Assembly: GCA_951406725.2 (NCBI GenBank)
Contig: OX597823.1
Location: 32,426,001 to 32,490,000, forward strand
Direction: 5' to 3'
Length of the DNA: 64,000 bases
DNA from: Octopus vulgaris
Lineage: Eukaryota
The notes below the pieces were generated by a model. The model searched no databases and had not been told where the DNA came from. It saw only the letters and a program-made list of their open reading frames with translations. Positions within the stretch are counted from its first letter, which is position 1, and each line of letters starts with the position of its first letter. The translations under genes and the position numbers were made by a program. Of the stretch, positions 1 through 61,046 are shown one piece after another.

Positions 1-170
1 CTACACTCTTGAAGGGGTTGGCATTAGGAAGGGTATCCAGCTGTAGAAATTGTGCCAGGTCAGATTGGAGCTTGGTGCAGCTGCTGGCTCTCCAAACCTC
101 AGCCAAACTGTCCAACCCATGCCAGCAAGGAACATGGACGTTAAACGATGATGATGATGATGATGATGAT
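1..170 (+). mobile_element. RTE-LINE 3' tail / RTE-tailed repeat (family C) with (GAT)n tail
   Basis: GGCATTAGGAAGGG..CAGCTGTAGAAA..CCAACCCATGCCAGC..GACGTTAAACGATGATGAT; same tail is joined to the RTE ORF at 55145-56390. Confidence 0.8.
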
Positions 171-342
171 AATGCTGATGAATGACCAGAGATGCATAAT
201 TAAAAATTCAACAGAATCATTGGCTACTTTGACATAAACAGAGACCACTCGAAAATTACACAACATTCAATGCTGAAGGCAATATTTCAGTATGACTTTA
301 GGTAGCCTGGCTTCAATCAATTAAATCTTCCTCAAAAGATAC

Positions 343-990
343 ATCATCATCATTGTTTAACGTCTGTTTTCCATGCTGGCATGGGTTGGACGGTTTGACT
401 GGGGTCTGGGAAACTAGGAGGCTGCACCAGGCTCCAGTCTGATCTGGCAGTGTTTGTACAGCTGGATGCCCTTTCTAATGCCAACCACTCCGAGAGTGTA
501 ATGGGTGCTTTTTTTACGTGCCACTGGCACAGGGGCCAGAGGGGGTTGGCAACGACCATGATCGGTTGGTATTTTTTACATACCCCCAAGCACAGAAGCC
601 AGTCAAGGTGGTGCTGGCTTCGGCTATGTTCGGAATGTGCTTTTTACATGCCACCGGCACGGGGATCACACCGACAATTTCCATTTGATTTTGGTTTTGA
701 TGTACTTGACTCAATAGGTCTCCTCAAGCACAGCATGTTGCCCTACGATCCAAGGTACTTTTGAGTGGGCTGGGGCTGGTTATGCGACACTGGTGTAGGT
801 TTCACTTTATTTGCCGGGTCTTCTCAGTCACAGCATATCTCCAGAGGTCCCGGTCATTCATCATCGCCTCTGTGAGGCCCAACATTTGAAGGTCATGCTT
901 CACCACCCCATCTCATGTCTTCCTGGGTCTACCTCTACCCTGGATTCTTTCTACTATTTGGGGGTGGCACTTCTTCACACAGCTCTCCTC
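343..990 (-). mobile_element. 5'-truncated RTE LINE: end of ORF plus 3' UTR
   Basis: Reverse complement of family C tail; 800-990 matches the RTE C-terminal region at 55650-55830. Confidence 0.8.
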
Positions 991-2399
991 AGGTAAGATA
1001 ATGTAGTTCTTGATAAACTTGGTGTGAAATTAGAGTGTTACTGCTGAAATGTCTTGGTCATGAGTCTTGCTAATCTTATTGACACTCACCCACCTGAAAC
1101 CACCCCTGCTCCTAAGATACAAGCTTCTTGTTTTAAAGTGATGTGAATTTACAACCCTTTATCCAAATTTTATGTAAATTTAAGTTTCAAATACTAGTTT
1201 TAGTGACAGAATTATTTTGCTAAATTATTCATTATTTAAAAAATTAAGTGAAACTGTTTCAACAGAAATATGTTAAATGAGTTCCAGGTCTGATCTGTGA
1301 ATAAACAATGACAGGATTACCAAGTTTTCTCTTAATCACTTCTGTTTACATCTGCATTTAACTTCCCTTCTGTCTTTTTATCTGATAGCCTTTTGATCTT
1401 TCTTGTCCCTGAATCACTTTAAAAAAAAAACTGCCTCAAGTTCTACAGGCTCATGTAAGCTGGAGCCATTCAGTTAAAGGTTACCTCCACTGTTACTGGT
1501 ATTAATTTTCAGTTGAGTAGACTGGAGCAACACGAAACAAATGTCTTGCTCAAGGACACAATTTACCAGCCCCAAATTTATCACAATTTATCAAACCCCA
1601 AATCAATGACCGTGAGCCCAACGCCCCTATCTGGCTATGTCATCACTTTATCGTTTCTTAGTTTTACTTGTTTTTACTTCCGTATATCTCAACTACCTAA
1701 CTCTATCATCGCTAATTCGGCTAATACCTACTATCTCGTCTAACGTCATCCTAAAATTTTTACCGTCTTTTCCTTCTTTTTACTACATGGAAGATAGACA
1801 TTAAACGACGACGATGACGATATATAATGCTTCGGTCTCACATATACAAACGTACATGAACGATATTGATATCTAACACAGAAACTTAGCCTCAAATTTT
1901 GAGAAGAATAATGTTCGTTTAGATCAATTCCCGCATTCAGCTGTTACTTATTTTATTAACCATGGGGGAAAAGAAACGAAAAGCAGAGTAGGTGGGAACT
2001 GAACTCAAAATTTAATAACATCTGAGGTGTTTTGTCTCCAATGCGACCGATTCTATCAATTTACAGCTCAGACACAAAATATTAACACACACAGATATTC
2101 ATACAATTACGCATAGCAGCTCTGACACGCACGCACGTACACACACACTCACAATTACAGACATAACCATACTCACACATCTGTTGCAGACTTCACACAC
2201 ACACATCAAGTCTTCCCTCCACTAACACCTCCGCTTCAGTTATTTTCTCTTTCAAAGTTGATCACTTTCCTGCTTCTCCCGTGTTTATTTTACTCCTCTC
2301 ATTCTGTTTATATATTCTTCATTCTCTCTCTTTCCCTCTCTCTGTGTAACTTTTCCATCTTTTTCACACTTCTCTGTCAACTTTTATTATTTACAAAAG

Positions 2400-2995
2400 C
2401 AAAAGCACGCCGGGCGAAATGCGTAGCCGTATTTCGTCTGCCGTTACGTTCTAAGTTTAAATTCCGCCTTTCATTCTTTCGGGGTCGATTAAATAAGTAC
2501 CAGTTACACACTAGGGTCGATATAATCGACTTAATCCGTTTGTCTGTCGTTGTTTGTCCCCTCTGAGTTTAGCCCCTTGTGGGTAGTAAAGAAATAGGTA
2601 TTTCGTCCGTTGCTCCGTTCTGAGTTCAAATTCCGCCGAGGTCGACTTAGCCTTTCATCTTTTTGGGGGGCGATAAATTAAGTACCAGTCAAGTAGTAGG
2701 ATCGATGTGATCGACTATCCCCACTCTCGACAAATTCCAGGCCTTATTTGCAAAACCAGCGGGCTTATGTTTCAATAAGATTGCCAACCAGCGAATGGCA
2801 GAATCATTAGCGCATGCATAGCTGCATATCTTGCGGTTGTCAACGTTCTGAGTTCAAACATCGTCGAGGTCAATTTTGCTTTTCATCCTTTCGGGGCTGA
2901 TAAAATAAAGTACCAGTCAAATATTAAGGGAAAAAATAATCGATTTATCCCTTCCCCCAAAATTGCTATTCTTGTTCTAAAATTTAAAACCGTTA
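2400..2995 (+). mobile_element. Tandem copies of tRNA-derived SINE family B, CpG-intact
   Basis: GCACGCCGGGCGAAATGC..GAGTTCAAATTCCGCC (B box)..GCCTTTCATCCTTTCGGGGTCGAT..AAGTACCAG, three overlapping copies. Confidence 0.85.
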
Positions 2996-2999
2996 TTCT

Positions 3000-3560
3000 A
3001 TCTTTCACAACTAAGTTCTCACTCACTTTATTCTTCTCTCTTTCATTTATTTCTTTTTCGCTCTCTCTTTCTCTCTGTATATAATTCTTATCCATTTTTT
3101 CTCTGTATCGTCATACCTTAATCTTTTTCCTTCTTTTTACTTCCTTCTGGCTTTATACATTCTTTTCTTTTTCTCTCTTTATAAGTTATCCTCTCTCTCT
3201 CTGTATATAATTCTCTAGCTTTACACTTATCTTTTCTACTCTTTACTGATTTATTCTCTCTCTCTCTCTCAATCTTTCACTCTCATTTCGCTATCTTTCC
3301 TTTATATCCCCATTTTACTCTCACTTTCACTCTTATTATTCTCTTTCTCTTTCTTTTCATATCGGTTCCCGATTTCTCTTGCCTCCCCACTGTGCGTTGT
3401 ATATTATATATATATATATATATATTCTGTCTCCTTTACTTTTTTCTCTACCTATTCCTCCGTTATTTGTCACACACTTTTCTTTTTCTCCTAATTTACT
3501 CCACCTTTCTCCCTCCTCCTATATTTTACTCCTCCCTTTCACACTTGCCCTCCCCTCCTT
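3000..3560 (+). repeat. Polypyrimidine (CT-rich) low-complexity tract
   Basis: Near-continuous C/T with (CT)n runs. Confidence 0.8.
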
Positions 3561-3629
3561 CCCTGTGTGTGTGTGTGTACTATGTATATATGCTTGTGCG
3601 TGTATTATATACATATACATGTGTGTTTG

Positions 3630-4119
3630 TGACTCGACAACCCCTGTCCCTGTTGTAGCTGGTTTTACCCAGGAAGAGTGTCAGTTGGCCAGACAATAAC
3701 AGGCCAACAGCGTGGCCAACTCTCATCCAACTGAGAGATAAAAATAAACTATAAAACTTGGGGTCAAAGATGAAGCGACAAGTTTTATACCCTAATCCTA
3801 TGTGGTCATTTAAACATCCTGGACACATGTACGACAGGAACTTGAACAATTAGCTTGATATTTCACATGATCACACATCGTACTTCGTTGTTCTGTGATT
3901 ATAACCAAAGTTATGGTAGTCTTATTAAAACAAGGGATCTATAATGTTAAAAAAGGTACACACGAAAAAAAGGATTAATTAATAATCATTTAAAAACAAT
4001 AATTGTTGTAATTTATGAATTAACAAACCTAAAGAGACGAATTTTACTGAAGAAACAGCAATATTTAAGTGGAGGTATAAAGAGCTAATTAACCAAAACA
4101 GTTAATAAATTCCTCAACC
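3630..4119 (+). promoter_or_regulatory. Candidate promoter / 5' UTR of a host gene
   Basis: Unique, CpG-retaining sequence after a CT tract and upstream of a Kozak ATG plus splice donor; contains a 27-codon uORF (ATGAAGCGACAA..AATTAG, ~3770-3853). Confidence 0.4.
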
Positions 4120-4125
4120 ATGGAG
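4120..4125 (+). CDS. Candidate first coding exon end (Met-Glu, phase-0 intron follows); gene unidentified
   Basis: CAACC ATG GAG | GTGAGT: strong Kozak context abutting a consensus donor, inside the CpG-rich zone. Confidence 0.45.
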
Positions 4126-4461
4126 GTGAGTAACAATGTTTACACAAACTTTTTGAAGGAAGAGCATGGGTAGACCTTAAACTTTCTGACGCCAACTTCA
4201 AATAATGATTTAGTAATACATATATAAACACACATCCTGTTTTAGGAATTAAATTATTGTTAAACGTGTTTTATTAATTAAATTATTGTTAAACGTGTTT
4301 TAAGGTGTTTTGTATTATTCAGCTGTTTATAATAACCCTTTAGGTTTCGTGGGGTAAAGTTAGTTTGCTAGAGTTTATAACTACTGATTACTTTTCGAAC
4401 CCTTAAGCTGCTTTTCACAGCCCCTTGTCTGTGCTTTTTTCGCAAATTCGTTATCTACGAT

Positions 4462-4651
4462 CAGTGTCGTCTTAAGGCATTGGCACACAGGACAGTTGCC
4501 CGGGAGCCCCACGGTTCTAGGGACTGAATTCTAATCCATATATGCTGTGGCTTGCTGTCAGTAAATACTATACAACCTAGTACATCGATTGGCGATGAAA
4601 CTTTGCCCATCGATTTGCCTGGAAGGGCCTTCATGTTTCTAAGACGGCTTA
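4462..4651. mobile_element. hAT-like MITE
   Basis: Imperfect TIRs CAGTGTCGTCTTAAG / CTAAGACGGCTT with subterminal TTGCCC motifs. Confidence 0.55.
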
Positions 4652-6074
4652 AAGCTTATAGATTCATAGAAATTTCGGTTTTTTGGTGCATTAGTTTATT
4701 TCCGACTCTATTCTATAGGAATGCCAAAACTTTAAGTTAATTTCGTGTAAATAAATGTTTATGCTAACGAGGAGGTGTAATTGAAAGTAGTGTCTCAATG
4801 ATAGTAAACAGCGAAAAGAGAGAGAGAGAGACAAGACAGAAGACTGGGAATTGAAACCCGACTGCAAACACCATTAATTTTGTCCTTGCTTAGCCCCTAC
4901 GCTACAGTAACAATTTAAATATTTTATTAGAAACACGCTTAATAAGTGGACTTGTGAATTTGTGATGTTCGGGTTGTAACCTACAACTTAGATCCTGCTA
5001 CAAGTAGTAAGCAACAAAGCAGACATGTGAGGGTGTGGTGTTCATGCTATAATCTACATCTTAGATCTTACTGCTTGCAAACGTGAAATTACTGTATGGT
5101 CACTCATTCTGGTAAAACACCAGCCAAATCTCCCTTAGATCACACACATCTTTAAAAAGGAAGAACATTATTATTACATATAGGACGGGCAGCGAAGACG
5201 GATCTACATTTAAATAACAACAGCAACACTAAACTGTCTACTTTTGCTCAGCACGTGTATGTCTGTCAGGCTCCCAATATTCTTTTACAGTCACATCAGA
5301 CATTTCTTAGAACCCCCTTTTTTTGTTTCTCTTATATATATATGTGTGTGTGCATCATGTGTGTGGTTACTTCCAAAAGTTTAACGAACATGCACGCCAC
5401 TAAAAGCATTGGGCGATTTTTTCTTTTAAATTGTTTTTGTACATAACTTGACATAAAAACAGACATTACGTGCGCGCACGCATAGACACACACACACACA
5501 CACACACATGCATTACTAGAGTCTACAGTTCCGATTAGAGAGAGGAGTGTCAGCCACGGTATTTGGGGGAAACAATTACATGTTATATCGCTGAATATAT
5601 GTGTAAACATTCAATGATCTAATAAATTATGTCAGTAGATTCTGAATCCGATACAAGGCCAGCAGTTTTGAGTAGTCGACAAAATAAAATATCAATACCT
5701 GACTGGTACTTTGTTTTATCAATCCTAGAAGGGATTAAAGACAAAGATGACCTCAGCGGGATCTGAACTCAGAATGTGAAATAGCCGGAACACGTACTGC
5801 AAGTATTTTCCCCGACGGTCTAGCGATTCTATAGTACACATATCAATAAAATTAAACCTTCTGCATTCAGTGTTTTGCAATATTTGATGATATTCAAGGA
5901 TATAAAATGTTTACATCCATCACATGTTCTAAAAGTACACCAGTGTTTATGATGAATGAATGAATTTGTGTGGAGGTAAAGCGTAAGCATCCCCTCCGCC
6001 TATATAAATATATGCTTATAGGTGTATGTACATACGCTCGTTTACATGTATACATATGAATGTGTGTATGTCTA

Positions 6075-6189
6075 CATTTACACACACACACACACATATA
6101 ATATATACTTATATATATCTATATATATATCTATATATATATATATATACATCTATATATATATATATATACATATCTATATATATATA

Positions 6190-6243
<54 letters not shown>
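6075..6243. repeat. (CA)n-(TA)n compound microsatellite, representative of dozens in the window
   Basis: Directly visible. Confidence 0.95.
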
Positions 6244-6247
<4 letters not shown>

Positions 6248-7003
6248 TCAACCACCTCACCAACAACAACACTGAACACCTTTTTGATCTCCATGTGTCT
6301 AACTGGACATATCATACAGCTCCCATGACTTTCGGATTTTTTCATATAAGCATGGAATATATTGTTGACTATGACACTGCATATATGCTTTCCGAAATAT
6401 ACCTATTATATATACACTTTAGATGATATGCACCTGAGCACTGTACACAATATTATTATTATTATTATATTATTATATATATATATATATATATATATAC
6501 AAATTGAGATAGGGGTTGTAAATGCAACCCTCCATGGGATAACATATATCCAATATACTGCTAGTGAAGTACCCAACAAGGTTAATACATAAATGTTAAG
6601 GATTGCGATGCAATCAATTCATTTACTGTATTATATGGGCAAAGGTAAAATGTTTTACCACAAATTCATAATACAAAATAAGAAAATGGAGAAATACATC
6701 TAAATCAAATATCAATTACCAGATAATACTCAATCACATACTTTATTAAACCACCACATAAGAAACTATAAGGTTAAACATAAAAAAGTAGAACAAAACA
6801 GTGTACATAAAGGAGAATACATATAAGTAGAATATATATAAGTAAATATAAATATAGATTTATGTTTTTCATTGTTTGATTTGCCTAATAGTAGTTTTAT
6901 CTCTAATTTAATATAATATAATATAATATATTTATACTATAAAATTGGATTTAGTCCTAAATCTGATTTTTCCCTGTAAGTTTGGATTTATTCCCTAATA
7001 TTT

Positions 7004-7352: not shown

Positions 7353-7563
7353 GTTATGTGCGTGTGTATATATCTCTTTCTTTCTATATGTTTGTGTCCC
7401 TTTATGGTTGTTCCTTTGACAAAAGGTGATTCATAAAATACATATTAGCGTGAGATAAGTATTGGGCTTCAAAAATGTCAATTGAACATATTGATTCTGG
7501 TACTTATTTCTATCCTAATATTTACTTTATGAATCATCGTTTGTCAAAAGTAGAAGCACAAAT

Positions 7564-7601
<38 letters not shown>

Positions 7602-13811: not shown

Positions 13812-14105
13812 TCTCATTTGCAACCCATAGAAAATGAACTTCCACCATCTATTCTGCCTATATGTCTGTGCACTCCTTTCAATGCCATGTATGTCATACA
13901 GTCTGCAAATCTAACGGAAGCCCCAAAAGATATTTTAAGATCCACAATGATCAGAACTTAATTGGTGGTCTAAATTGGATATGCAATCTATGTGGGTGTA
14001 TTTTCAAGACATTGTCCGGTTTAAAAAGTCACATCAGATGCCATGATGGTTCTAAGGTGTAGGTACAGGAGGTGGTCAAACTCTGCATAAAGAGTAGCCA
14101 ACCCC
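13812..14105 (+). mobile_element. 3' end of a LINE (RTE-like) ORF with two C2H2-type zinc fingers
   Basis: ORF 13862-14062 CHVC..KIH and CNLCGCIFKTLSGLKSHIRCH, then short 3' UTR and (TA)n; 5' end abuts a SINE; no TGEKP linker. Confidence 0.6.
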
Positions 14106-14154: not shown

Positions 14155-14262
14155 CCATTACACATGTTTCATTTGCTAATAGGAATTACCAAATTGCCCT
14201 TGATAGATAAACATGTAAAAAATTTCCCATTAGAAATGTCTGATTAGAAATTCTTCAGACAG
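14155..14262 (-). ncRNA. Type I hammerhead-ribozyme-like motif with long stem II
   Basis: Minus strand: CUGU-CUGAAGA-AUUUCUAAU...AUUAGCAAAU-GAAA-C-AUGU-G-UA-AUGG; core intact, GUA site, 4-bp stem I with two G-U pairs. Confidence 0.6.
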
Positions 14263-14307
14263 AGAGTCAAATAATATCTGTCTGAGGAATTCCTAATAGG
14301 AAATTTC

Positions 14308-27980: not shown

Positions 27981-28180
27981 TAGATAGATAGATAGATAGA
28001 TAGAGTGGTAGATAGATAGATAAACAGGCAGACAGACTGACATATATATATATGTATTTAAGTCACAATATATGGTTTCAAGTAATTCAGCAATACTCAT
28101 AAAAACAGCTCCTTAATGTATCATTCTACAAACCATAGAATGTACAGTCTGATACAAGAGAACATGATAAGGAGTGTATA

Positions 28181-28302
28181 AAGTTATAAATAACAACAGA
28201 AATAGTATAATGAAATTTATTTAACCATTGGAAAATTCCTATATCACAACAAATTTTCCAATGGTTAAATGGTTATACTATTTCTCTCATCATTTATAAC
28301 TT
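28181..28302. repeat. Imperfect inverted repeat (hairpin)
   Basis: ATTTAACCATTGGAAAATT / AATTTTCCAATGGTTAAAT plus outer AGAAATAGTATAA / TTATACTATTTCT and AAGTTATAAAT / ATTTATAACTT. Confidence 0.75.
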
Positions 28303-28929
28303 AATATTTAATACACACACACACACACATATATGTGTATGTGTGTGTCATTGCGGTTGTGTTTATTCCCCCTCCCCAATCACTTCACAACCAGTGTTGG
28401 TTTGTTTACATTCCCCTAAGTTAGTGGTTTGGCAAAAGAAGCTGATAGAATGAATGTGTACCAGACTTTAAAAATATAAGCTGGAGTCAGTTTGTTCACC
28501 TAAAACCCGCTCAAGGTGCTGCTCCAGACTGGCCACATTCCAGTGACTAAAACAAGCAAATGCTAAAAGGATAGTGAAAGTACAGAAATGAGAAAATTTA
28601 TAAAACATGATATTTCCACTAGTTTTGTTTAACGCATTGCAGTTGTTATTCTTGGTGTTTTGTATTTTGTCAAGCGGACATTAAGATAGGAGGAAAGAAA
28701 ATATTCTAGTTTCTTGTCATCTTTCACTATTTTCTGTTATCTTCTGTTATAGGAGTAGGACTGGCTGTGTGGTAAGTAGCTTGCTTACCAACCACATGGT
28801 TCTGGGTTCAGTCCCACTGCGTGGCACCTTGGGCAAGTGTCTTCTACTATAGCCTCAGGCCTACCAAAGCCTTGTGAGTGGATTTGGTAGACGGAAACTG
28901 AAGGAAGCCTGTCGTATATATATATATGT

Positions 28930-32959: not shown

Positions 32960-33690
32960 ATCACCAGATATCCCAATCCACAGTCATCTCCTCTGTGAGG
33001 CTTAACATCTCGAGATTGGTCCTCACTACATCTTCCTATATCTCCCTGGGTCTCCCTCTTCTACTTTGAGTAATCAGCACTTCTTTACACAGCTATCTTC
33101 ATTCTTATGCACCACATGTCCAACCCTACACAATCTTCCCTCTTGCATGCTACATCTAATTTCTCCGATGCCCAACTCTTCTCATTTGCATTTTGTTGTA
33201 CATGCACACTGATGATGCACATCCACTGGAGCATACTAGCTTCATTCTTCACCAGTTTTTGCATGTCTTCTGCATTCAAGGCCCAAATCTCACTACCATA
33301 GTCATTTGTTTACAAGCATCATTCAATCTGCCTTTCACCCTGAGATAGAAGCCTTTTGTTGTCAGTTCTCTGAACTTCCTTCAACTTTTATTCAAGCTAC
33401 TGTATTTCCAGAAGATCCTCTTCTGCTGCTAATTTGGTTACCTAGGCAACAGAAACTATCCACAATCTCAGAGGAACTTCCTGGGCATTTGAGAGAATCT
33501 AATTCCCTTGTGTCCTTAGTGTTTATTGTTCCTGCACACCTGCCACATACAAAAATGACATTCTCTGTTAACCTACCTGTCATTTCACAGCACTTCTTAT
33601 GTGTCCATGGCTTACAGTGGGAGCAATGAATGAAATTCCTTCCAACACCTTTCCTACATTTTGGGTAGGGCTATTTACCAGACAGAAAGA
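32960..33690 (-). pseudogene. Decayed RTE LINE ORF2 C-terminal fragment
   Basis: ORFs 33392-33583 (CGRCAGTI..IVDSFCCLGNQISS) and 33085-33279 (NEASMLQWMC) are homologous to 55696-56390. Confidence 0.8.
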
Positions 33691-34129: not shown

Positions 34130-34620
34130 TTGGTTTTGGTTATTACTGGCCCAGGACATGTCCATCTTGATAGCACTAATTGGAGTAGTTTTTCAATATT
34201 TGGGTGCCTAACCCATTTCTTCCTTTCACTTGCACCTGGACACATATTAGCACTACATTACCTCACCATTCACTTGGGCTTTTTGGACAAAAAAATTAAG
34301 AATTTCACCTCTGATTATCTCTGATGGATTTGTCCCATCTTTTTCATAAAATCCACCAACCAGAGCAGTCTATGATGTTTTAGGAAATCAGAGCTCACTT
34401 GAGTAGGGAGTTCTTGTTTGATGAGATGTATTTGGGTGTTGATGGTGGGGGTTGTCTGGATTTCTTGGAGAATTTGTCAAGTAAACATTTGAATGTTGTG
34501 GTGTTTGTTTTATGTGTTTATTGATTGATTGATTTCCTTTAGAATAGTATTGAATAATGTCAGACCAGCTGAGGTAAGAAAAAAAAGAAGTTATGTCACA
34601 ATGTTGTTATATGATGTGAA
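34130..34620 (-). pseudogene. CR1/L2-like LINE 3' fragment
   Basis: Minus strand GLTLFNTILK ... TFKCLLDKF..PDNP resembles the G..LFN.LP..FK..LD.FL..IPD.P terminus. Confidence 0.55.
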
Positions 34621-34994
34621 GTGAAGGTATGTGGTTCAATGGTTAGGTTGTGAATTTGATTCCCCACGCAGTGTGTTTGTGTCCTTGAGCAAGACACTTT
34701 ACTTCACATTGTACCTGTAAATCAAAGGGCCAGCCTTGTCACATTCTGTGTCACACTGATTCACCCTGAGAACTTTGTTAAGGGTACGTGGGTCTTTATG
34801 ACATTACAAGTGTTTAATGCATTTTGTTGTTGAAGACATTGGACATGGTTTGAACAGTTTCACATGTTAACAGACACACACACAAACTCAAAACCACATG
34901 TTTGTATCCCAAACATGAGCTCTTGGGTTCAGTTCTTCTGTGTGACACCTTGGCCAACTAAATCCTTGTGTGTAGCTTTCATAGACAGAAGCTT

Positions 34995-35040
<46 letters not shown>

Positions 35041-35045
<5 letters not shown>

Positions 35046-35311
35046 ATGTATAATGTAATAGTTTAGAAAAAAAAAGCCATTGGTTTCATTTCAAGCGAGA
35101 ACTAGACATTTCTTCAGTTTTTCTAAATGATAACCATTCTCTGTGAAGAATATTTTTTAAAACACAAGAATGCTGGTGATAGTTCTTGTGCTTAAAAAAA
35201 ACATTCTTTGCAGAGAACAGTTATCATTTAGAAAAACTGAAGAAATGTCTAGTTCTCGCTTGAGATGAGACCAATGGCTCTTTTTCTAAACTATTACTTT
35301 ACTCATACAAA
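35041..35311. repeat. ~270-bp fold-back palindrome with a hammerhead-like motif on each strand
   Basis: ~125-bp arms, loop ~35171-35182; plus strand TTTAGAAAAA-CTGAAGA(35237)-..-GAGA-CCAATGGC-TC-TTTTTCTAAA, mirrored with intact GAAA on the minus strand. Confidence 0.8.
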
Positions 35312-35460
35312 AATAAACAACTGCTCTTTATTTTATAGGCTATGCTCTTCTCCTGATTTATGATATTGTAAAGATATATATATAAATATATATATATGCT
35401 TTCGGTGAGAATGGTTTTGTTATACAGCGCCGTATTTTACAATCCCATAAATAATAATAA

Positions 35461-35673
35461 TAATAATGGTATTTTTATATAAGCTTAAAGCTTATGGTGA
35501 TCACTGTGCAATGACTAAGGAAAATAGTCTAATAAAGGGGCATATAAACTCTTGACAAAAAAGAAGGCTTTCCTATTCATGAGGGCTTATATGCCCCTTT
35601 ATTAGACTATTTTCCTCAGTCACTGCACGGTGATCACTATAGTCTTTAAGCTTATATAAAAATACCGTTATTA
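35461..35673. repeat. ~210-bp fold-back palindrome
   Basis: Arms 35461-35552 and 35579-35673 are near reverse complements; CTGAGGA half-core on the minus strand. Confidence 0.85.
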
Positions 35674-35699
35674 ATATACATATATTTATATACGTGAAA

Positions 35700-35885
35700 T
35701 ATATAGAAAAACAAAAGACAAAGACAGATATATGAACAACAAGCAGGTGTATTAGTTTGGCACTTAGGAAAATGAAAAAGTCTTTTACGTTTCAAGCCTA
35801 CGCTCTGCAACAGAAAGGAATAAGAGAAAATGAACAGAGAGATAATGAAAAAAACTTGTAGATTTCAGCTGTCCAGCATCGTGAA
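35700..35885 (-). mobile_element. Short PLE-like repeat with minimal hammerhead-like motif (second copy 52500-52710, + strand)
   Basis: Minus: CUUU-CUGUUGC-A-GAGC-GUAG-GCUU-GAAACGUA-AAAG; shares ATACACCTGCTTGTTGTTC with the 52.6-kb copy. Confidence 0.6.
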
Positions 35886-35899
35886 TGTGTATATATATA

Positions 35900-35947
<48 letters not shown>

Positions 35948-36114
35948 CGTATCTGTGGCACCTGTGCAGGTGGCATATATCACGGAGTGGTTGGCGTTAG
36001 GAAGGGCATCCAGCCGTATGCCAGATATGGGCCTGATGAAGCCTATATAACCGTCCATGCTAGCATGGAGAACGGACGCTAAATGATATGATGATATATG
36101 TATGTATGTATGTA

Positions 36115-36396
36115 TGTAAAAATAATGGGTTTTGAATGGCACTATAATAACTGGACAATGGACTATAATAACTGTTATAATTTAATTATCCATAGTTTGA
36201 TATAGTGTTTTGGAATATAAAAATTCCTTCTTCAGATATCCCTAGGAATTGATTGATCCTAGCGATATCTGAAGAAGGAATTTTTATATTCTGAATATTG
36301 TATCAGACGATGGATGATTAAATTACAACAGTTTTTATAGTCCATTGTTGCTATTATAGTGCATTGTTGTGCCATTTAAAACAAATTATTTTTTAC
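36115..36396. repeat. ~280-bp fold-back palindrome with a hammerhead-like motif on each strand
   Basis: Centre CTAGGA ATTGATTGA TCCTAG; GATAT-CTGAAGA(36269)-A-GGAAT..ATTCT-GAAT..GTATC and its mirror. Confidence 0.8.
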
Positions 36397-36469
36397 AAAC
36401 AACACACAATGCTCCAAGCGAACAACAATACTCTCATATATATGTATATACATATGTATATATATAGTC

Positions 36470-41137: not shown

Positions 41138-41389
41138 TATTGTATAGCAGGGGGTCATTATGCCAATAATAAACACCTGCACTGGTTCCATTTCACTTCT
41201 TTATTTATTTGTCAATTGGTTAATCATTTAACCAATTAACTGATTGATGGTTTGATTGACTGAATGATTAATCAGACAATCAATCAGTTATTTAATTAAA
41301 TAGTTAACCAATTGACAAATAAATAAAGAAGAGAAATGGAACCACTGCACGTGCTTATTATTGATGCAGTGACCTCCCAAGATACAATA
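41138..41389. repeat. ~250-bp fold-back palindrome (MITE-like)
   Basis: CTTCTTTATTTATTTGTCAATTGGTTAA / TTAACCAATTGACAAATAAATAAAGAAG and pairing out to both ends. Confidence 0.85.
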
Positions 41390-49627: not shown

Positions 49628-52600
49628 ATATATAACTAATTCCACTGTTTGTTTTGACATGGCTTGGGGCTAGTTGATTACATTGACCCCAGTGCTCTGC
49701 TTATTTTACTGACCCTGAAAGGACAAAAGGCAAAGTCAATCTTGACAGTTTGGACTCAGAACATAGAGGTGGACAAATAAAAACAACAACAATAATGGTT
49801 TTTGATTTAGATACAAGGCCAGCAAAAAAGTTGTTTGTCTATACAGTTATGGGGAAAACTGCAGTCTAATGCACTTTCTGAGTGGCAAGCCTAATGAAAA
49901 AGGTTGCCTTTATCTGGTCTATACTGTCAACTCTAGCACTTGACTCTCTTAAGAAACCACCTTCACTTCTTTCTTTGTTTCTCTTCTGAACTTGGTTGCA
50001 TTTGAACTCAGAATATGAAGAGTCAAGAGAAGTGCTAAGTACAAAGCCAGTAAGAAATATGCTAGTTGATACCATCAACCCTAGTCCTTTCCTTTATTGA
50101 CTCTGGAGGAATGTAAGAGAAAGTTGACCTGGGTGGGATTTGAACTCGGAATGCCAAGACAAATGCTGCAAGGTATTTTTTCTGATACCAATAATAATTT
50201 CAATAATAAGACTGTGTAGTATAATTTTTGTCCTTTGGTAGCAACTGTTATTTCCCATTATCTTACCTTGAGAAAGTATGAAAACTGGCTAATATTTCCT
50301 TCAAAATTTGCTTTTGTTACGTTTATTCAAGCCCCAAAGAATCCCTCTTGACACATGGCTATGATGCTCCTCCATTACTCCTGCTCATGATCAGAGATGA
50401 CGTATTGTTAGTCACTAAGGGACATGCTCAACTGGTTAAGGTCAAACAACTTTTCTACTCTAGGCACAAGGCCTGAAATTTTTGGTGAAGGAGCCAATCG
50501 ATTATATCGACCCCAGGCAAAGTCAACCATAGCAGCATTTGAACTCAGAATGTAAAGACAGACAAAATATCACTAAACATTTCGCCCGGTGTGCTAATGT
50601 TTCTGCCAGCTCACTGCTTGTTAGAGTCAAGCAACTGATAAGCAAATCAAGATGTTAAGCAGAATATTTGCTATAATGATATTTCTACTTCTGCATCTCA
50701 GCACTGAATCTGTCTGAAATGTAATGGAAAATAGGTCAGTTTGCAAACATTGATGTCCAGGTCACAAAAGCAAAGTTTGAAAGGATTAGTCATCATTTCT
50801 GCTTAGAAGCAAATAGGGAATAACACTTACTGACCAAAGACCAAACAAGAAAAACAATTAAAATTTTGCTACACAGTGTTATTGATTAATAAAAGAGCAA
50901 AATATCTAATTGGATGGTATATTGTGTCAGTGATATCATTTCCAACGAGAAATATGTGAAGCTAAACTTGACTGAACTAGAACTTTGAACCACTAAGATG
51001 CCGAACAAATGAACAATCTAAGACAGTAACAAGCAAAATGATTTCTTAATATTCCATTATTTGAAAATTTAATTTGTCGATTTTCATATGTTTGAAAACC
51101 AGAGAATTGGGTGTAGTCAGCTAAAATGTAATTCAAAGGCTTTAGTTCTTATCTTCTTCCTCCATTTCCTCTTTTCTGCTAGGCATATTTCTTGAGATTT
51201 TATAGAAATTATGAAAATTATGTCACGCGTGATGATTGGAAGGGAACAAAACAGAAATCTTGAAAATTTTAACAAAACCCTCCACCTCACCACTGCCAAC
51301 AACACATCTAAGGCAAACTACTGAAGGAAAGATGGCAGGATATCAACATTTTAAGATTTTTATGCACAGAGACAATATGATTTGTTACATAATTCAGATG
51401 ATTTGTCTGGAATTCATCTCAAATGTCTCCATTCTCTCCCCAAACATTTTTTCATGCTCTTCTTTCTACAATATTCCGCAATATCCTTATCTCTCCCCTC
51501 CTACCACTCCTCTGTGCTTTAACCTTGCTCTCTTAAGAAGCCACCTTCACTTCTTTCTTTGTTTCTCTTCTGACTCCCTGCCACTACCACCACCATTTCA
51601 CATACCACCATTACCACAACCACCTACCACCTTCACTAATACCACCAACACTGCCCACTATTACCGTTGACATCAACACCACCCCTTTCACTACCCCTCC
51701 ACCATCACCATGGCTACTATCTCCACGCTATCACCACTACCACCACCACCACCATCACCACTACCATCACCACCACCTTCTCTACTCCCACCACCACCAT
51801 CACCTTCAATTACTCATTCCTTCCAATCTCTCTTATATTCCACTCAACATTTTTTCCAGAACTACTCCCCCTCCTACTTTCACTGTCACCCTCTTCTAGT
51901 CATTTCCCTCTCCTTTTGCTTTGTTACCACTCCCTTAGCTATATCTCCCACCTCACCTCCATCCCCCTACAACCCCAACCACCACCATTTTGTTTGGATC
52001 CACTTGAAAAAAATGTCATATTTTTAACAAAACTCATTTCTTTTTTGATATTTACAGTTTCTTCTGTCATATATCCAACACTCTACTACTACTACTACAA
52101 CACAAATACATTTGAATACATTCAGACACATGAGAGAGCAGAAAAAGAAAGAGTAAAGAGAAAGGGCAGGAGGAAAAGTGAGAGATGGGGAAATAGGAGA
52201 GACAGAGAGGGAGGGAGAGAGATAGGGGGAAGAGACAAGGGAGAGATAGGAGAGACAGAGAAGGGGAGAGAGAGATAAGGGAAGAGACAAGGGAGAGAGG
52301 TGAGAGAAAGACAGTAAGTACTCAATACATGTAATTCAAAAGTTTTTTCACTCGTTTGAAGCTGAAGTTTTCACTTCGTTGCAAACTTTATATTTTTATT
52401 GATTTGGTCTGAAAGACAGGAGGTTGTTTGTGTCTCTTGCTTTCACAGGCCCTCTCAGATCAACGAGATAGTGCAGTGTTTAAGTTTTAATTAAGTGTGC
52501 GTGTGAGAGAGTCATCTCGCCATGTTGGACTGCTGAATTCTACACAGTTTTTTCCTCTCCATTTTTTTCATCTTATTTCTTTGTCGAAGAGCGTAGGCTT

Positions 52601-52709
52601 AAAACATGAAGGACTTTTTCATTCTTCCCGAACGTTAAACAAACAATACACCTGCTTGTTGTTCCTACACCTGTCTTTGTCTTTTGTTTTACTGTAAATT
52701 TGAACTATG

Positions 52710-55144: not shown

Positions 55145-56388
55145 TCATCATCATCGTTTAACGTCCGCTTTCTATGCTAGCATGGGTTGAACAATTTGAC
55201 TGAGGACTGGCGAACCAGATGTCCACACCAGGCTCCAATCTGATCTGGCAGAGTTTCTACAGCTGGATGCCCTTCTTATGCCAGCCACTCTGAGAGTGTA
55301 TTGGGTACTTTTACGTGCCACCTGCACAGGAGCCAGTCCAGTGGCACTGGCAACAACCTCATTCGAATGTTTTTTCATGTGCCACCAGCACAAGTGCCAG
55401 TAAGGTGACGCTGGTAACGATCACACTCGAATGGTGCATTTTACGTGCCACCAGCACAGAAGCCAGTCAGCTGCTCTGGCAACGATCATACTCGGATGGC
55501 GCTCTTAGCGCTCTACTAACTGGATGCCAGTCATCGAATTTGATTTCGATTTCACTTGCCTCAGCAGGTCTTCGCAAGTGTCCAATGAAGGAAAGGTACA
55601 CATAAGTGGGCTGGTTACACCACTGGCATAGGCCACAGGTTATGATCTCACTTGGCTTGCCAGGTCTTCTCAAGCACAGCATATTTCAAAAGGTCTCAGT
55701 CACTAGTCATTGCCTCGGTGAGGTCTAATGTTCGAAGGTTGTGCTTCCCCACCTCATCCCAGGTCTTCCTGGGTATACCTCTTCCACTGGTTCCCTCAAC
55801 TGCTAGGGTGTGGAACTTTTTCACATAGCTATCCTCATTCATTCTTGCCACATGACTATACCAGCACAGTTGTCTGTCTTGCACACTACATCTGATGCTT
55901 CTTAGGTCCAACTTTTCTCTCAAGGCACTTACACTCTGTTGAGTATGCACACTGATATTACACATCCAGTAGAGCATACTGGCTTCATTCCTTGCAAGCT
56001 TACGGCCCATGTTTCACTGCCATGTAGCATGGCTGTTCGTACACATGCATCATACAGTCTACCTTTTACTCTGAGTGAGAGGCCCTTTGTCACCAGTAGA
56101 GGTAGGAGCTCTCTGAACTTTGCCCTGGCTATTCTTATTCTAGCTGCTACACTTTCAGAGCACCCCCCCCCCCACTACTGACTTGGTGACCTAGGTAATG
56201 GAAGCTATCAACTACTTCTAGTTTTTTTCCCTGGAATGTGGTGGAAGTTGTTCCCTGCTCATTTTTTTATTGCTCCTGAGCATCTGCCACATACAAAAAC
56301 TATCTCCCCAGTTAGCCTTCCTTTGATATTGCTGTACCTCTTATGTGTCCATAGCTTATACTGGGTACATCTTATAGAGTTTATATAT

Positions 56389-57192: not shown

Positions 57193-57449
57193 ATTGTGTT
57201 GTGTCTGGGGAGAGTCATTTTCTTTTTGTGCCTTATAATTTAACACACTCACTGGTAAAATTTCCACTTATATTCCTTATTTTTATTTTCCTAAAATTTT
57301 CATTGCATATTGCAACCTTTTCAATAGTCAAGACTATTGAAAAGGTTGCAAGACGCAACGAAAATAAGGAATAAGTGGAAATTTTACCGGTGAGCGTGTT
57401 AAATTATAAGGCACAAAGAGAAAATGACTCTCCCCAGGCACAACAGAAT
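57193..57449. repeat. ~255-bp fold-back palindrome with U3-A8-type hammerhead-like core
   Basis: Centre TTCAATAGTC AA GACTATTGAA; TTGAAAA(57337)-G-GTTGC-AAGAC-GCAAC-GAAA, mirrored on the minus strand. Confidence 0.8.
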
Positions 57450-60763: not shown

Positions 60764-61046
60764 TTTTTTTTTTATAGCGTAGTGGTTAAGAGCGCAGGCT
60801 GCTAACTCCAAGATTCCGAGTTCGATTCCAGGCAGTGACCTGAATAATAATAATAATAATAATAATAACAACAACATTGAAAAATACCTTAGGAATGAGA
60901 ACCCAGGTTCAAAATTTCTCCAAGATACCTGATGAAGGCTGGAGGGTATATCAGCTGAAACGTGTTAACAACAAACAAGATGAGGACAAATATCTGTCAA
61001 ATGTAAATAATGTACATAATTCCTCATCTCTTAAATATAGAACTGT
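60764..61046 (+). mobile_element. tRNA-headed short element with hammerhead-like body, nested in a family B SINE, 13-bp TSD
   Basis: A box TAGCGTAGTGG, B box GAGTTCGATTCC, (AAT)n, CTGATGA(60929)-A-GGCTG..CAGCT-GAAA(60957); AAAATGCTTTGTA at 60751-60763 and 61047-61059. Confidence 0.75.

What the first reader, a model, noticed from the sequence alone, without database searches (positions are those of the whole stretch)
34990..36450. Hotspot of four hammerhead/palindrome elements in (TA)n tracts
Seen: within 1.4 kb lie three long hairpins and one minimal-hammerhead repeat, each separated by (TA)n or (AAT)n. Known: some PLE clades target microsatellites. Inference: TA-targeted insertion builds ribozyme and dsRNA clusters inside an intron, which could cut or structure the host pre-mRNA.
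Basis: partly seen in the sequence, partly recalled or inferred. Interest (0 to 1): 0.7.

Follow-up and report, generated by a model that had tools for sequence, protein, structure and literature searches.

The report
Pile of decayed Penelope retrotransposon stumps
Three long DNA palindromes and one hammerhead-ribozyme-like repeat sit side by side between TA microsatellites; two palindromes and the repeat are likely decayed stumps of Penelope-type jumping genes whose ribozyme motifs are predicted to be inactive, while the third palindrome belongs to an abundant, unclassified repeat family with no ribozyme motif.

Summary
HP1 (35042-35315), HP2 (35457-35677) and HP3 (36118-36394) are real palindromes (arms 87-92% alike, folding z -20 to -27). 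A fourth repeat (35690-35870) carries a minimal hammerhead motif on the minus strand. HP1 and HP3 hold one type I hammerhead motif per arm, pointing outward. Other copies of the HP1 family carry letters that complete helix II and GAAA, and run about 47 nt past one arm. That is the published Penelope-like (PLE) layout: head-to-head inverted ends plus a one-sided tail. A fourth long palindrome (57193-57449) shows it cleanly, with a 10-bp target duplication. TA-targeting is seen for one family only. The functional inference is weak: four of five motifs have core mutations, each palindromic motif is predicted to be buried by its own antisense arm (23-29 kcal/mol to open), and no host gene or intron was shown. 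HP2 has no hammerhead; its very abundant family carries a tRNA T-arm-like hairpin in the loop, missing from this copy, and is the one open lead. Verdict: new members of a known kind, interest 0.3.

The parts
34998..35041 (.). (TA)n tract, left flank of HP1
35042..35170 (-). HP1 left arm; type I hammerhead motif read outward on the minus strand (core 35117-35111, GAAA 35087-35084, helix I 10 bp, helix II with 2 mismatches); the only motif of the interval with all core letters
   Evidence: 0 of 300 shuffles
35183..35315 (+). HP1 right arm; type I hammerhead motif read outward (core 35237-35243, helix II 35245-35252/35259-35266 with 6 of 8 pairs, GAGA in place of GAAA at 35267-35270, helix I 10 bp)
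   Evidence: family letters at 35261, 35264, 35269 table 3
35316..35362 (+). One-sided extension of the HP1 family (likely PLE tail)
   Evidence: table 8: three contigs from runs X1, X3, X8 cover arm plus extension to 35362-35364; table 2 depth continues to 35360
35374..35397 (.). (TA)n tract
35398..35467 (.). About 50 nt unique in the window, then (AAT)n; possible one-sided extension of HP2, untested
   Evidence: one search gave no cover here
35457..35677 (.). HP2 palindrome, member of a very abundant family, no hammerhead; other copies carry a longer loop with a 5-bp-stem, 7-nt-loop T-arm-like hairpin that this copy lacks
   Evidence: (tables 2, 5c, 7)
35690..35870 (-). Very abundant repeat with a single minimal hammerhead motif (helix I 4 bp, core 35813-35807 with T at position 6 and C at position 9, helix II 4 bp, GAAA, CG, TA); its 3' end abuts a TA-rich tract
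   Evidence: 2 of 200 shuffles; second copy at about 52520-52700; tables 3 and 7
35890..35943 (.). (TA)n tract
35944..36096 (+). Degenerate copy of an abundant SINE-like repeat; no hammerhead
36097..36118 (.). (TATG)n tract
36118..36247 (-). HP3 left arm; decayed minimal hammerhead motif read outward (core from 36235, helix II 5 bp, AAAA in place of GAAA)
   Evidence: (4 of 200 shuffles)
36257..36394 (+). HP3 right arm; decayed minimal hammerhead motif read outward (helix I 5 bp, core 36269-36275, helix II 5 bp, GAAT in place of GAAA at 36293-36296)
   Evidence: 1 of 300 shuffles; 1 of 200
36397..36435 (+). About 40-nt one-sided extension of HP3, candidate tail
   Evidence: a TA-rich 10-nt direct repeat lies 14 nt left and 41 nt right of the palindrome; weak because low complexity
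36436..36466 (.). TA-rich tract, right border

Best explanation
The interval is a pile of five unrelated repeats separated by TA-type microsatellites, of which HP1, HP3 and the 35690-35870 repeat are likely dead, heavily 5'-truncated insertions of Penelope-like retrotransposons (PLEs) whose hammerhead motifs are predicted to be inactive. Shown: the palindromes, the outward-pointing hammerhead motifs, the multi-copy families of HP1, HP2 and the 35690-35870 repeat, the one-sided extension of the HP1 family, and (TA)n at one family boundary. Inferred from published PLE anatomy: a PLE endonuclease opens a TA-rich site, reverse transcription copies only the hammerhead-bearing end, and self-priming adds an inverted copy, which leaves arm-loop-arm plus a tail on one side. 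Inferred: each insertion leaves TA sequence on both sides, so targets persist and different families pile up. Predicted: because the arms are head to head, a read-through transcript of either strand makes the antisense arm first, and the ribozyme is trapped in a 100-130 bp duplex; the likely RNA-level effect, if any, is passive double-stranded RNA. HP2 is a high-copy palindromic element without a hammerhead; I put PLE-type mobilisation at about 0.45 and a MITE at about 0.4.
For: Descriptor scan: the three best hits of the whole window, both strands, are the two HP1 arms and the 57193-57449 palindrome; per segment 0 of 300 shuffles for each HP1 arm, 1 of 300 for HP3 right; 2 of 200 for the 35690-35870 repeat. 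Independent of my scoring, family copies in 4 of 4 runs carry the letters that pair the two mismatched helix II positions of HP1 (35261 in 12, 10, 9, 14 contigs; 35264 in 12, 10, 10, 14) and give GAAA (35269 in 9, 7, 9, 17), and A9 and a helix II G-C pair in the 35690-35870 family (35807 and 35794, 126-128 contigs, the counting cap) (table 3; pairs). Three contigs continue from the HP1 arm to 35362-35364 (table 8). In-window control: 57193-57449 has a motif on both arms with the U3-A8 core, a 10-bp direct repeat 0 nt left and 48 nt right. Literature: inverted 5'-truncated copy plus a 30-40 bp one-sided tail, and (TA)n bias in Naiad and, as a hypothesis on mechanism, Neptune (10.1101/2021.04.23.441226, passages); head-to-head self-priming, 31-bp tail, 8-10 bp duplications (PMC3846280, passages); dual minimal hammerheads on opposite strands, unpaired base before helix II, U3-A8 variant (PMC4209133, Results). 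Opening the core costs 29, 25 and 23 kcal/mol in the whole palindromes against 6.0, 4.4 and 1.0 in the arm alone.
Against: No PLE reverse transcriptase or endonuclease was linked to any of these families; no genome is held. Rfam gave no hammerhead hit at gathering, among 81 matches at E up to 10 or on three short stretches. My first, strict descriptor found 0 hits in the interval; the relaxed ones were written after I saw the motifs by eye, use an ad hoc score, and were run on 15 and 23 segments, so 2 of 200 and 4 of 200 are weak alone (two HP2 segments reached 4 and 8 of 200). The second window copy of the 35690-35870 family gave no descriptor hit. Target duplications of HP1 and HP2 were not found. 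Only 3 of 8 palindromes touch a TA tract. Folding is equilibrium prediction, not a measurement.
Confidence: 0.8

Rival explanations
1. One reading: the cluster lies in an intron and its ribozymes cut, or its hairpins regulate, the host pre-mRNA.
For: HP1's left arm keeps all core letters and a 10-bp helix I. A 31-nt exon-like stretch with good splice signals lies at 34543-34573 on the plus strand. Three stable stems would form in any transcript.
Against: Core changes in 4 of 5 motifs; cores predicted paired (mean unpaired probability 0.001-0.105); single minimal hammerheads inactive in vitro (PMC4209133 Results); the exon candidate is 1 of 35 listed and no host protein was identified; no strand bias for G-U pairs.
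Confidence: 0.07
2. All three palindromes are MITEs of DNA transposons that insert at TA, and the hammerhead-like motifs are chance.
For: Size (220-280 bp), long inverted arms, high copy number of HP2; TIR elements and MITEs are recorded in an octopus repeat annotation (PMC13282606, part 1).
Against: Family letters repair helix II and GAAA in HP1; a contig of the HP1 family carries one arm behind 318 nt of unrelated upstream sequence and continues into a one-sided tail (table 8); the 57193-57449 control has a 10-bp duplication displaced by 48 nt on one side. Remains open for HP2 alone (about 0.4).
Confidence: 0.08
3. A selected cluster of hairpin-RNA or microRNA precursors.
For: Very stable folds; sub-threshold Rfam matches to plant MIR models, as any long hairpin would give.
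Against: 0 matches at gathering; G-U 26 vs A-C 21 over 8 palindromes, P 0.56; HP1 and HP2 are dispersed repeats.
Confidence: 0.03
4. Local fold-back duplications at fragile (TA)n sites, or assembly fold-back.
For: Each palindrome is single-copy in the window and touches a TA-type tract; no contig spanned this locus.
Against: Arms differ by 8-13% with indels; HP1 and HP2 sequences are multi-copy in 4 of 4 runs; opposite-strand joints show the HP2 palindrome in other contigs (table 5).
Confidence: 0.02

Closest known systems
Insertion units of endonuclease-positive Penelope-like elements (inverted pLTR plus tail; PMC3846280; 10.1101/2021.04.23.441226)
   Same: Head-to-head inverted ends, one-sided extension, microsatellite flanks that hide target duplications, dispersed multi-copy families.
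   Different: Here only 130-180 nt stumps with no coding sequence; extensions are 40-48 nt against 30-40 nt; the clade was not determined. (TA)n preference is documented there for Naiad, which lacks hammerheads, so the hammerhead-bearing stumps would belong to another clade, Neptune being a guess.
Minimal type I hammerheads of metazoan PLEs (PMC4209133)
   Same: CUGANGA, one unpaired base, helix II of 4-8 bp, GAAA, short palindromic helix or loop III, pairs on opposite strands, U3-A8 variant at 57193-57449.
   Different: Cores are closer (34 and 120 nt) than or at the low end of the 100-700 bp reported; most are decayed; both window copies of the 35690-35870 family have T at the normally invariant A6, a variant I did not find in print (supplements of PMC4209133 not seen).
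Non-LTR retrozymes (10.64898/2026.07.22.740005)
   Same: Short non-coding PLE-related units with type I hammerheads.
   Different: Retrozymes are head-to-tail tandem repeats; these are head-to-head pairs or single copies.
MITEs and tRNA-derived SINEs (for HP2)
   Same: Long inverted arms and very high abundance as in MITEs; a T-arm-like hairpin and a T-run in the family loop as in tRNA-derived elements.
   Different: No superfamily-type terminus or target duplication was identified; the combination was not found in the searches made; repeat libraries such as Repbase and Dfam could not be searched.

Membership tests
PLE insertion stump (inverted pLTR) | Hammerhead motif in the terminal repeat | tested here: met
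   HP1 both arms, HP3 both arms (decayed), 35690-35870; not met for HP2
PLE insertion stump (inverted pLTR) | Head-to-head inverted copy | tested here: met
   Motifs read outward from the centre in HP1 and HP3
PLE insertion stump (inverted pLTR) | One-sided tail of 30-40 bp | tested here: met
   HP1 family runs about 47 nt past the right arm in 3 contigs (table 8); HP3 about 40 nt by position only; HP2 untested
PLE insertion stump (inverted pLTR) | Target-site duplication | tested here: inconclusive
   None for HP1 and HP2, a TA-rich 10-mer for HP3, a clear 10-mer for the control 57193-57449
PLE insertion stump (inverted pLTR) | Same end attached to a PLE reverse transcriptase and GIY-YIG frame | not testable with these tools
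   No genome held; collection scans found no relatives
PLE insertion stump (inverted pLTR) | Dispersed multi-copy family | tested here: met
Active minimal type I hammerhead | Intact core CUGANGA, GAAA, UH | tested here: not met
   Intact in 1 of 5 motifs in the interval (HP1 left arm)
Active minimal type I hammerhead | Helices I and II able to form | tested here: inconclusive
   Pairable in the arm alone, predicted blocked in the whole palindrome; HP1 helix II has 2 mismatches
Active minimal type I hammerhead | Self-cleavage, as a dimer | not testable with these tools
   Needs an in vitro assay or raw RNA reads
Non-LTR retrozyme | Two or more head-to-tail units each with a hammerhead | tested here: not met
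   No such tandem array
MITE (HP2) | Terminal inverted repeats and high copy number | tested here: met
MITE (HP2) | Fixed termini and superfamily-specific target duplication | tested here: inconclusive
   No duplication found; left boundary not covered
tRNA-derived SINE (HP2) | B box / T arm | tested here: inconclusive
   Present in a loose-end consensus of 33 contigs, agreement 0.61, run X1 (table 7); absent from the window copy; ARAGORN 0 genes
tRNA-derived SINE (HP2) | A box, cloverleaf and retrotransposon-derived 3' end | not testable with these tools
   No full-length copy could be fetched
Hairpin RNA / microRNA locus | Strand-specific G-U conservation | tested here: not met
   26 vs 21, P 0.56
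Hairpin RNA / microRNA locus | Processed small RNA reads | not testable with these tools
   Only contigs were available

The most novel reading that the evidence does not exclude
HP2 is a copy of a massively amplified tRNA-derived element that is mobilised by PLE machinery as a fold-back unit (a Penelope-driven SINE equivalent, plausibly Naiad-driven since it has no hammerhead and sits in TA tracts), and PLE stumps of this kind supply ready-made 100-130 bp double-stranded RNA editing substrates every 10-15 kb of a cephalopod-type genome while silencing their own ribozymes by geometry.
Probability: 0.2. Interest if true: 0.65.

Novelty: new member of a known kind. Interest (0 to 1): 0.3.

Why it matters
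As it stands this is ordinary transposon debris of a described kind, useful mainly for annotation: such palindromes are easily filed as MITEs or microRNA hairpins although they carry PLE hallmarks. Two points could matter. The head-to-head geometry predicts that the ribozymes are silenced in any host transcript, which would explain why such insertions are tolerated and is directly testable. And the HP2 family, with a T-arm-like hairpin between long inverted arms, fits no class I could find in print; a PLE-mobilised tRNA-derived element would be a new partner type for PLEs.

Tried and rejected
Own-genome search: no genome held. Rfam: no hammerhead; it also missed the clear core at 60929, so these blanks say little. 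The mismatch counts printed double-counted one class; replace them. G-U bias as a sign of RNA selection or editing: not found. Collection scans for an HP2 arm stretch: 0 in viral, metagenome and genome contigs; for the SINE-like repeat 0 in viral contigs; for the 35690-35870 motif 0 viral and 2 metagenome loci, both dropped as chance matches inside a bacterial type IV secretion gene cluster with no similarity to the window. T-arm motif in the window: 2 matches at 3 mismatches, both outside the interval, not followed. Host gene: 46 of 200 open frames scanned with Pfam gave only weak zinc-finger and PHD matches in 2; one protein search found nothing. Sequencing runs: 24 listed, best share 0.34, no RNA holder listed. 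One search covered 35042-35886 only and left a gap left of HP2, so HP3 and the HP2 left boundary are open. Earlier-findings look-ups by place, sequence and words returned nothing.

Full report
Context. The window is eukaryotic, AT-rich and about 43% self-repeated; no whole genome is held. The abundant SINE-like repeats look like octopus repeats, but that label is recalled and comes from no call. PLEs are recorded in octopus genomes (PMC13282606, part 1 of 3 and passages; Naiad families in Octopus spp., 10.1101/2021.04.23.441226, passages).

Observation. Three long palindromes lie in the interval: HP1 35042-35315, HP2 35457-35677 and HP3 36118-36394, with arms 90%, 92% and 87% alike and folding z-scores of -20 to -27, 0 of 200 shuffles as good. 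They are unrelated to one another and single-copy in the window. TA-type tracts separate them. Two further repeats lie between HP2 and HP3: 35690-35870, with a second copy near 52520-52700, and 35944-36096, a degenerate member of a SINE-like family, whose CTGATGA aligns with CTGGTGCA in most of the 8 other copies aligned. Five more palindromes occur elsewhere in the window. The chance of 3 of 5 long palindromes falling within 1.1 kb is 0.009, of 3 of 8 is 0.043, both post hoc; all three touch a TA-type tract against 25% for random segments, but the other five lie 111-550 nt away.

Hammerheads. Rfam finds none and also misses the clear core at 60929. A strict descriptor found none in the interval. 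After reading the definition of minimal PLE hammerheads (PMC4209133: abstract, Results, Discussion, bioinformatic methods; figures and supplements not seen) I relaxed it. With one core mismatch allowed, the three best hits of the whole window are the two HP1 arms and the left arm of the palindrome at 57193-57449; 0 of 300 shuffles reach either HP1 arm and 1 of 300 reaches the HP3 right arm (15 segments). With two mismatches and no helix I rule, the 35690-35870 repeat scores 2 of 200, HP3 left 4 of 200, the 60929 motif 0 of 200, the SINE-like copy 50 of 200, and two HP2 segments 4 and 8 of 200 through hits that lack a proper core (23 segments). The score is ad hoc and was written after seeing the motifs, so the stronger evidence is from other copies. 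Contigs of four DNA runs laid on 35042-35886 at 80% likeness show, in all four runs, letters at 35261 and 35264 that pair the two mismatched positions of the 8-bp helix II of HP1 and a letter at 35269 that gives GAAA; mirrored changes appear at 35090 and 35093. In the 35690-35870 family, 35807 and 35794 differ in 126-128 contigs (the cap) and give A9 and a G-C pair in helix II. Both window copies of that family have T at position 6; natural change at A6 is known as A6C with low activity (PMC3088659, passages), and I found no A6U report. In HP1 and HP3 the motifs read outward from the centre, one per strand, 120 and 34 nt apart.

Family structure. Summed contig depth over HP1 is about 70-6,500, over HP2 about 2,500-2,500,000 and over 35709-35853 about 25,000-1,600,000 (table 2); these are not copy numbers but show dispersed families. 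Three contigs, from runs X1, X3 and X8, cover the HP1 right arm and continue to 35362-35364; the X1 contig has 318 nt of other sequence upstream, as expected for a longer 5'-truncated copy at another place (table 8). The family therefore extends about 47 nt past one arm, up to the next TA tract. This matches the inverted 5'-truncated copy and one-sided 30-40 bp tail described for PLEs (10.1101/2021.04.23.441226, passages; PMC3846280, passages, which also argues for self-priming as the cause of head-to-head repeats). The palindrome at 57193-57449 is an in-window control: motifs on both arms with the U3-A8 core reported in PMC4209133, and a 10-bp direct repeat directly left and 48 nt right. Loose ends before 35708 are (TA)n in 70 contigs of X2 and 85 of X8, agreement 0.66 (table 7, which shows 24 of 1,741 rows), so TA-targeting is seen for this one family. 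No link to a PLE protein could be tested.

HP2. It has no hammerhead on either arm in either direction. Loose ends in its loop show that other copies have a longer centre: a consensus of 33 contigs of run X1 (agreement 0.61) holds a 5-bp stem with a 7-nt loop that reads as a tRNA T arm on the minus strand, followed on that strand by a T-run, and one joint gives further loop letters (tables 5c, 7). The window copy lacks this part and ARAGORN finds nothing. Many joints in X1 remove parts of the inner arm and loop, and opposite-strand joints show the palindrome in other contigs (table 5). Relative to the neighbouring repeat the family is far more abundant in X1 than in the other three runs. About 50 unique nt left of HP2 could be a tail but were not covered. 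I could fetch no full copy. Searches (listings) and passages showed no such element; repeat libraries and the supplement of PMC13282606 (listed, not opened) may hold it.

Function. Of five motifs in the interval only the HP1 left arm has all core letters. In a head-to-head palindrome the motif always lies in the downstream arm, behind its own complement. Forcing the core open costs 29 and 25 kcal/mol in HP1, 23 in HP3 and 20 in the control, against 1-6 in the arm alone; mean unpaired probability of the core is 0.001-0.105. Single minimal hammerheads gave no detectable cleavage in vitro (PMC4209133). Cutting of a host transcript is therefore unlikely. In Xenopus, retrozymes are enriched between genes and under-represented in introns (10.64898/2026.07.22.740005, part 1 of 5 and passages), a different element type and only context. 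An intron was not shown: a 31-nt exon-like stretch at 34543-34573 is 1 of 35 candidates from a crude splice score, and Pfam and one protein search named no host gene. If transcribed, the three stems would be long double-stranded RNA, which ADAR and Dicer act on (established knowledge); nothing here shows that, and there is no G-U bias (26 vs 21).

Unexplained. At single transition mismatches the left arm has A or T and the right arm G or C at 34 of 47 sites over 8 palindromes (P 0.003 pooled, post hoc; 6 of 8 lean that way).

Comparison and verdict. HP1, HP3 and the 35690-35870 repeat work like, and on the features tested are, truncated PLE insertion units; attachment to a PLE protein is the untested defining feature. 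They are not retrozymes (no tandem units) and not active ribozymes by sequence. Two earlier scan notes from other genomes reach the same reading for similar palindromes; I saw them after forming mine and they are not independent evidence. New members of a known kind, interest 0.3, with HP2 as the open lead.

Noticed in passing
window 57193-57449: Palindrome with a minimal hammerhead motif on both arms (U3-A8 core), a 10-bp direct repeat 0 nt left and 48 nt right: a clean PLE stump, not in a TA tract.
   Followed up: yes
window 60929-60966, + strand: Single minimal hammerhead core with intact CUGAUGA and GAAA and a 5-6 bp helix II, downstream of an (AAT)n tract; no adjacent helix I found.
   Followed up: partly
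window 41138-41389, 7389-7574, 28177-28306, 14233-14307: Four more palindromes, unrelated to the others, with no significant hammerhead descriptor hit.
   Followed up: partly
all 8 palindromes of the window: Left arms carry A/T and right arms G/C at 34 of 47 single transition mismatches; no explanation.
   Followed up: partly
window 35810 and the copy near 52520-52700: Both copies of the abundant hammerhead repeat have T at the normally invariant A6 position; may be a fixed family variant.
   Followed up: partly
window 34543-34573, + strand: 31-nt exon-like stretch with a pyrimidine-rich acceptor and GTAAG donor 420 nt upstream of the cluster; no gene assigned.
   Followed up: partly
window 33088-33670 and 55699-56174, - strand: Broken reading frames that look like LINE remnants (recalled resemblance; only a weak PHD match in Pfam).
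   Followed up: no
window 13838-14062, + strand: Short frame with a C2H2 zinc-finger match (zf-met 22.3 bits, cut-off 21.2).
   Followed up: no
window 2-500: Two copies of the SINE-like repeat in inverted orientation about 180 nt apart.
   Followed up: no
L001 3000-3027 and L002 4001-4028: Chance pattern matches inside a bacterial type IV secretion gene cluster (family name recalled from the translations); unrelated to the window.
   Followed up: yes
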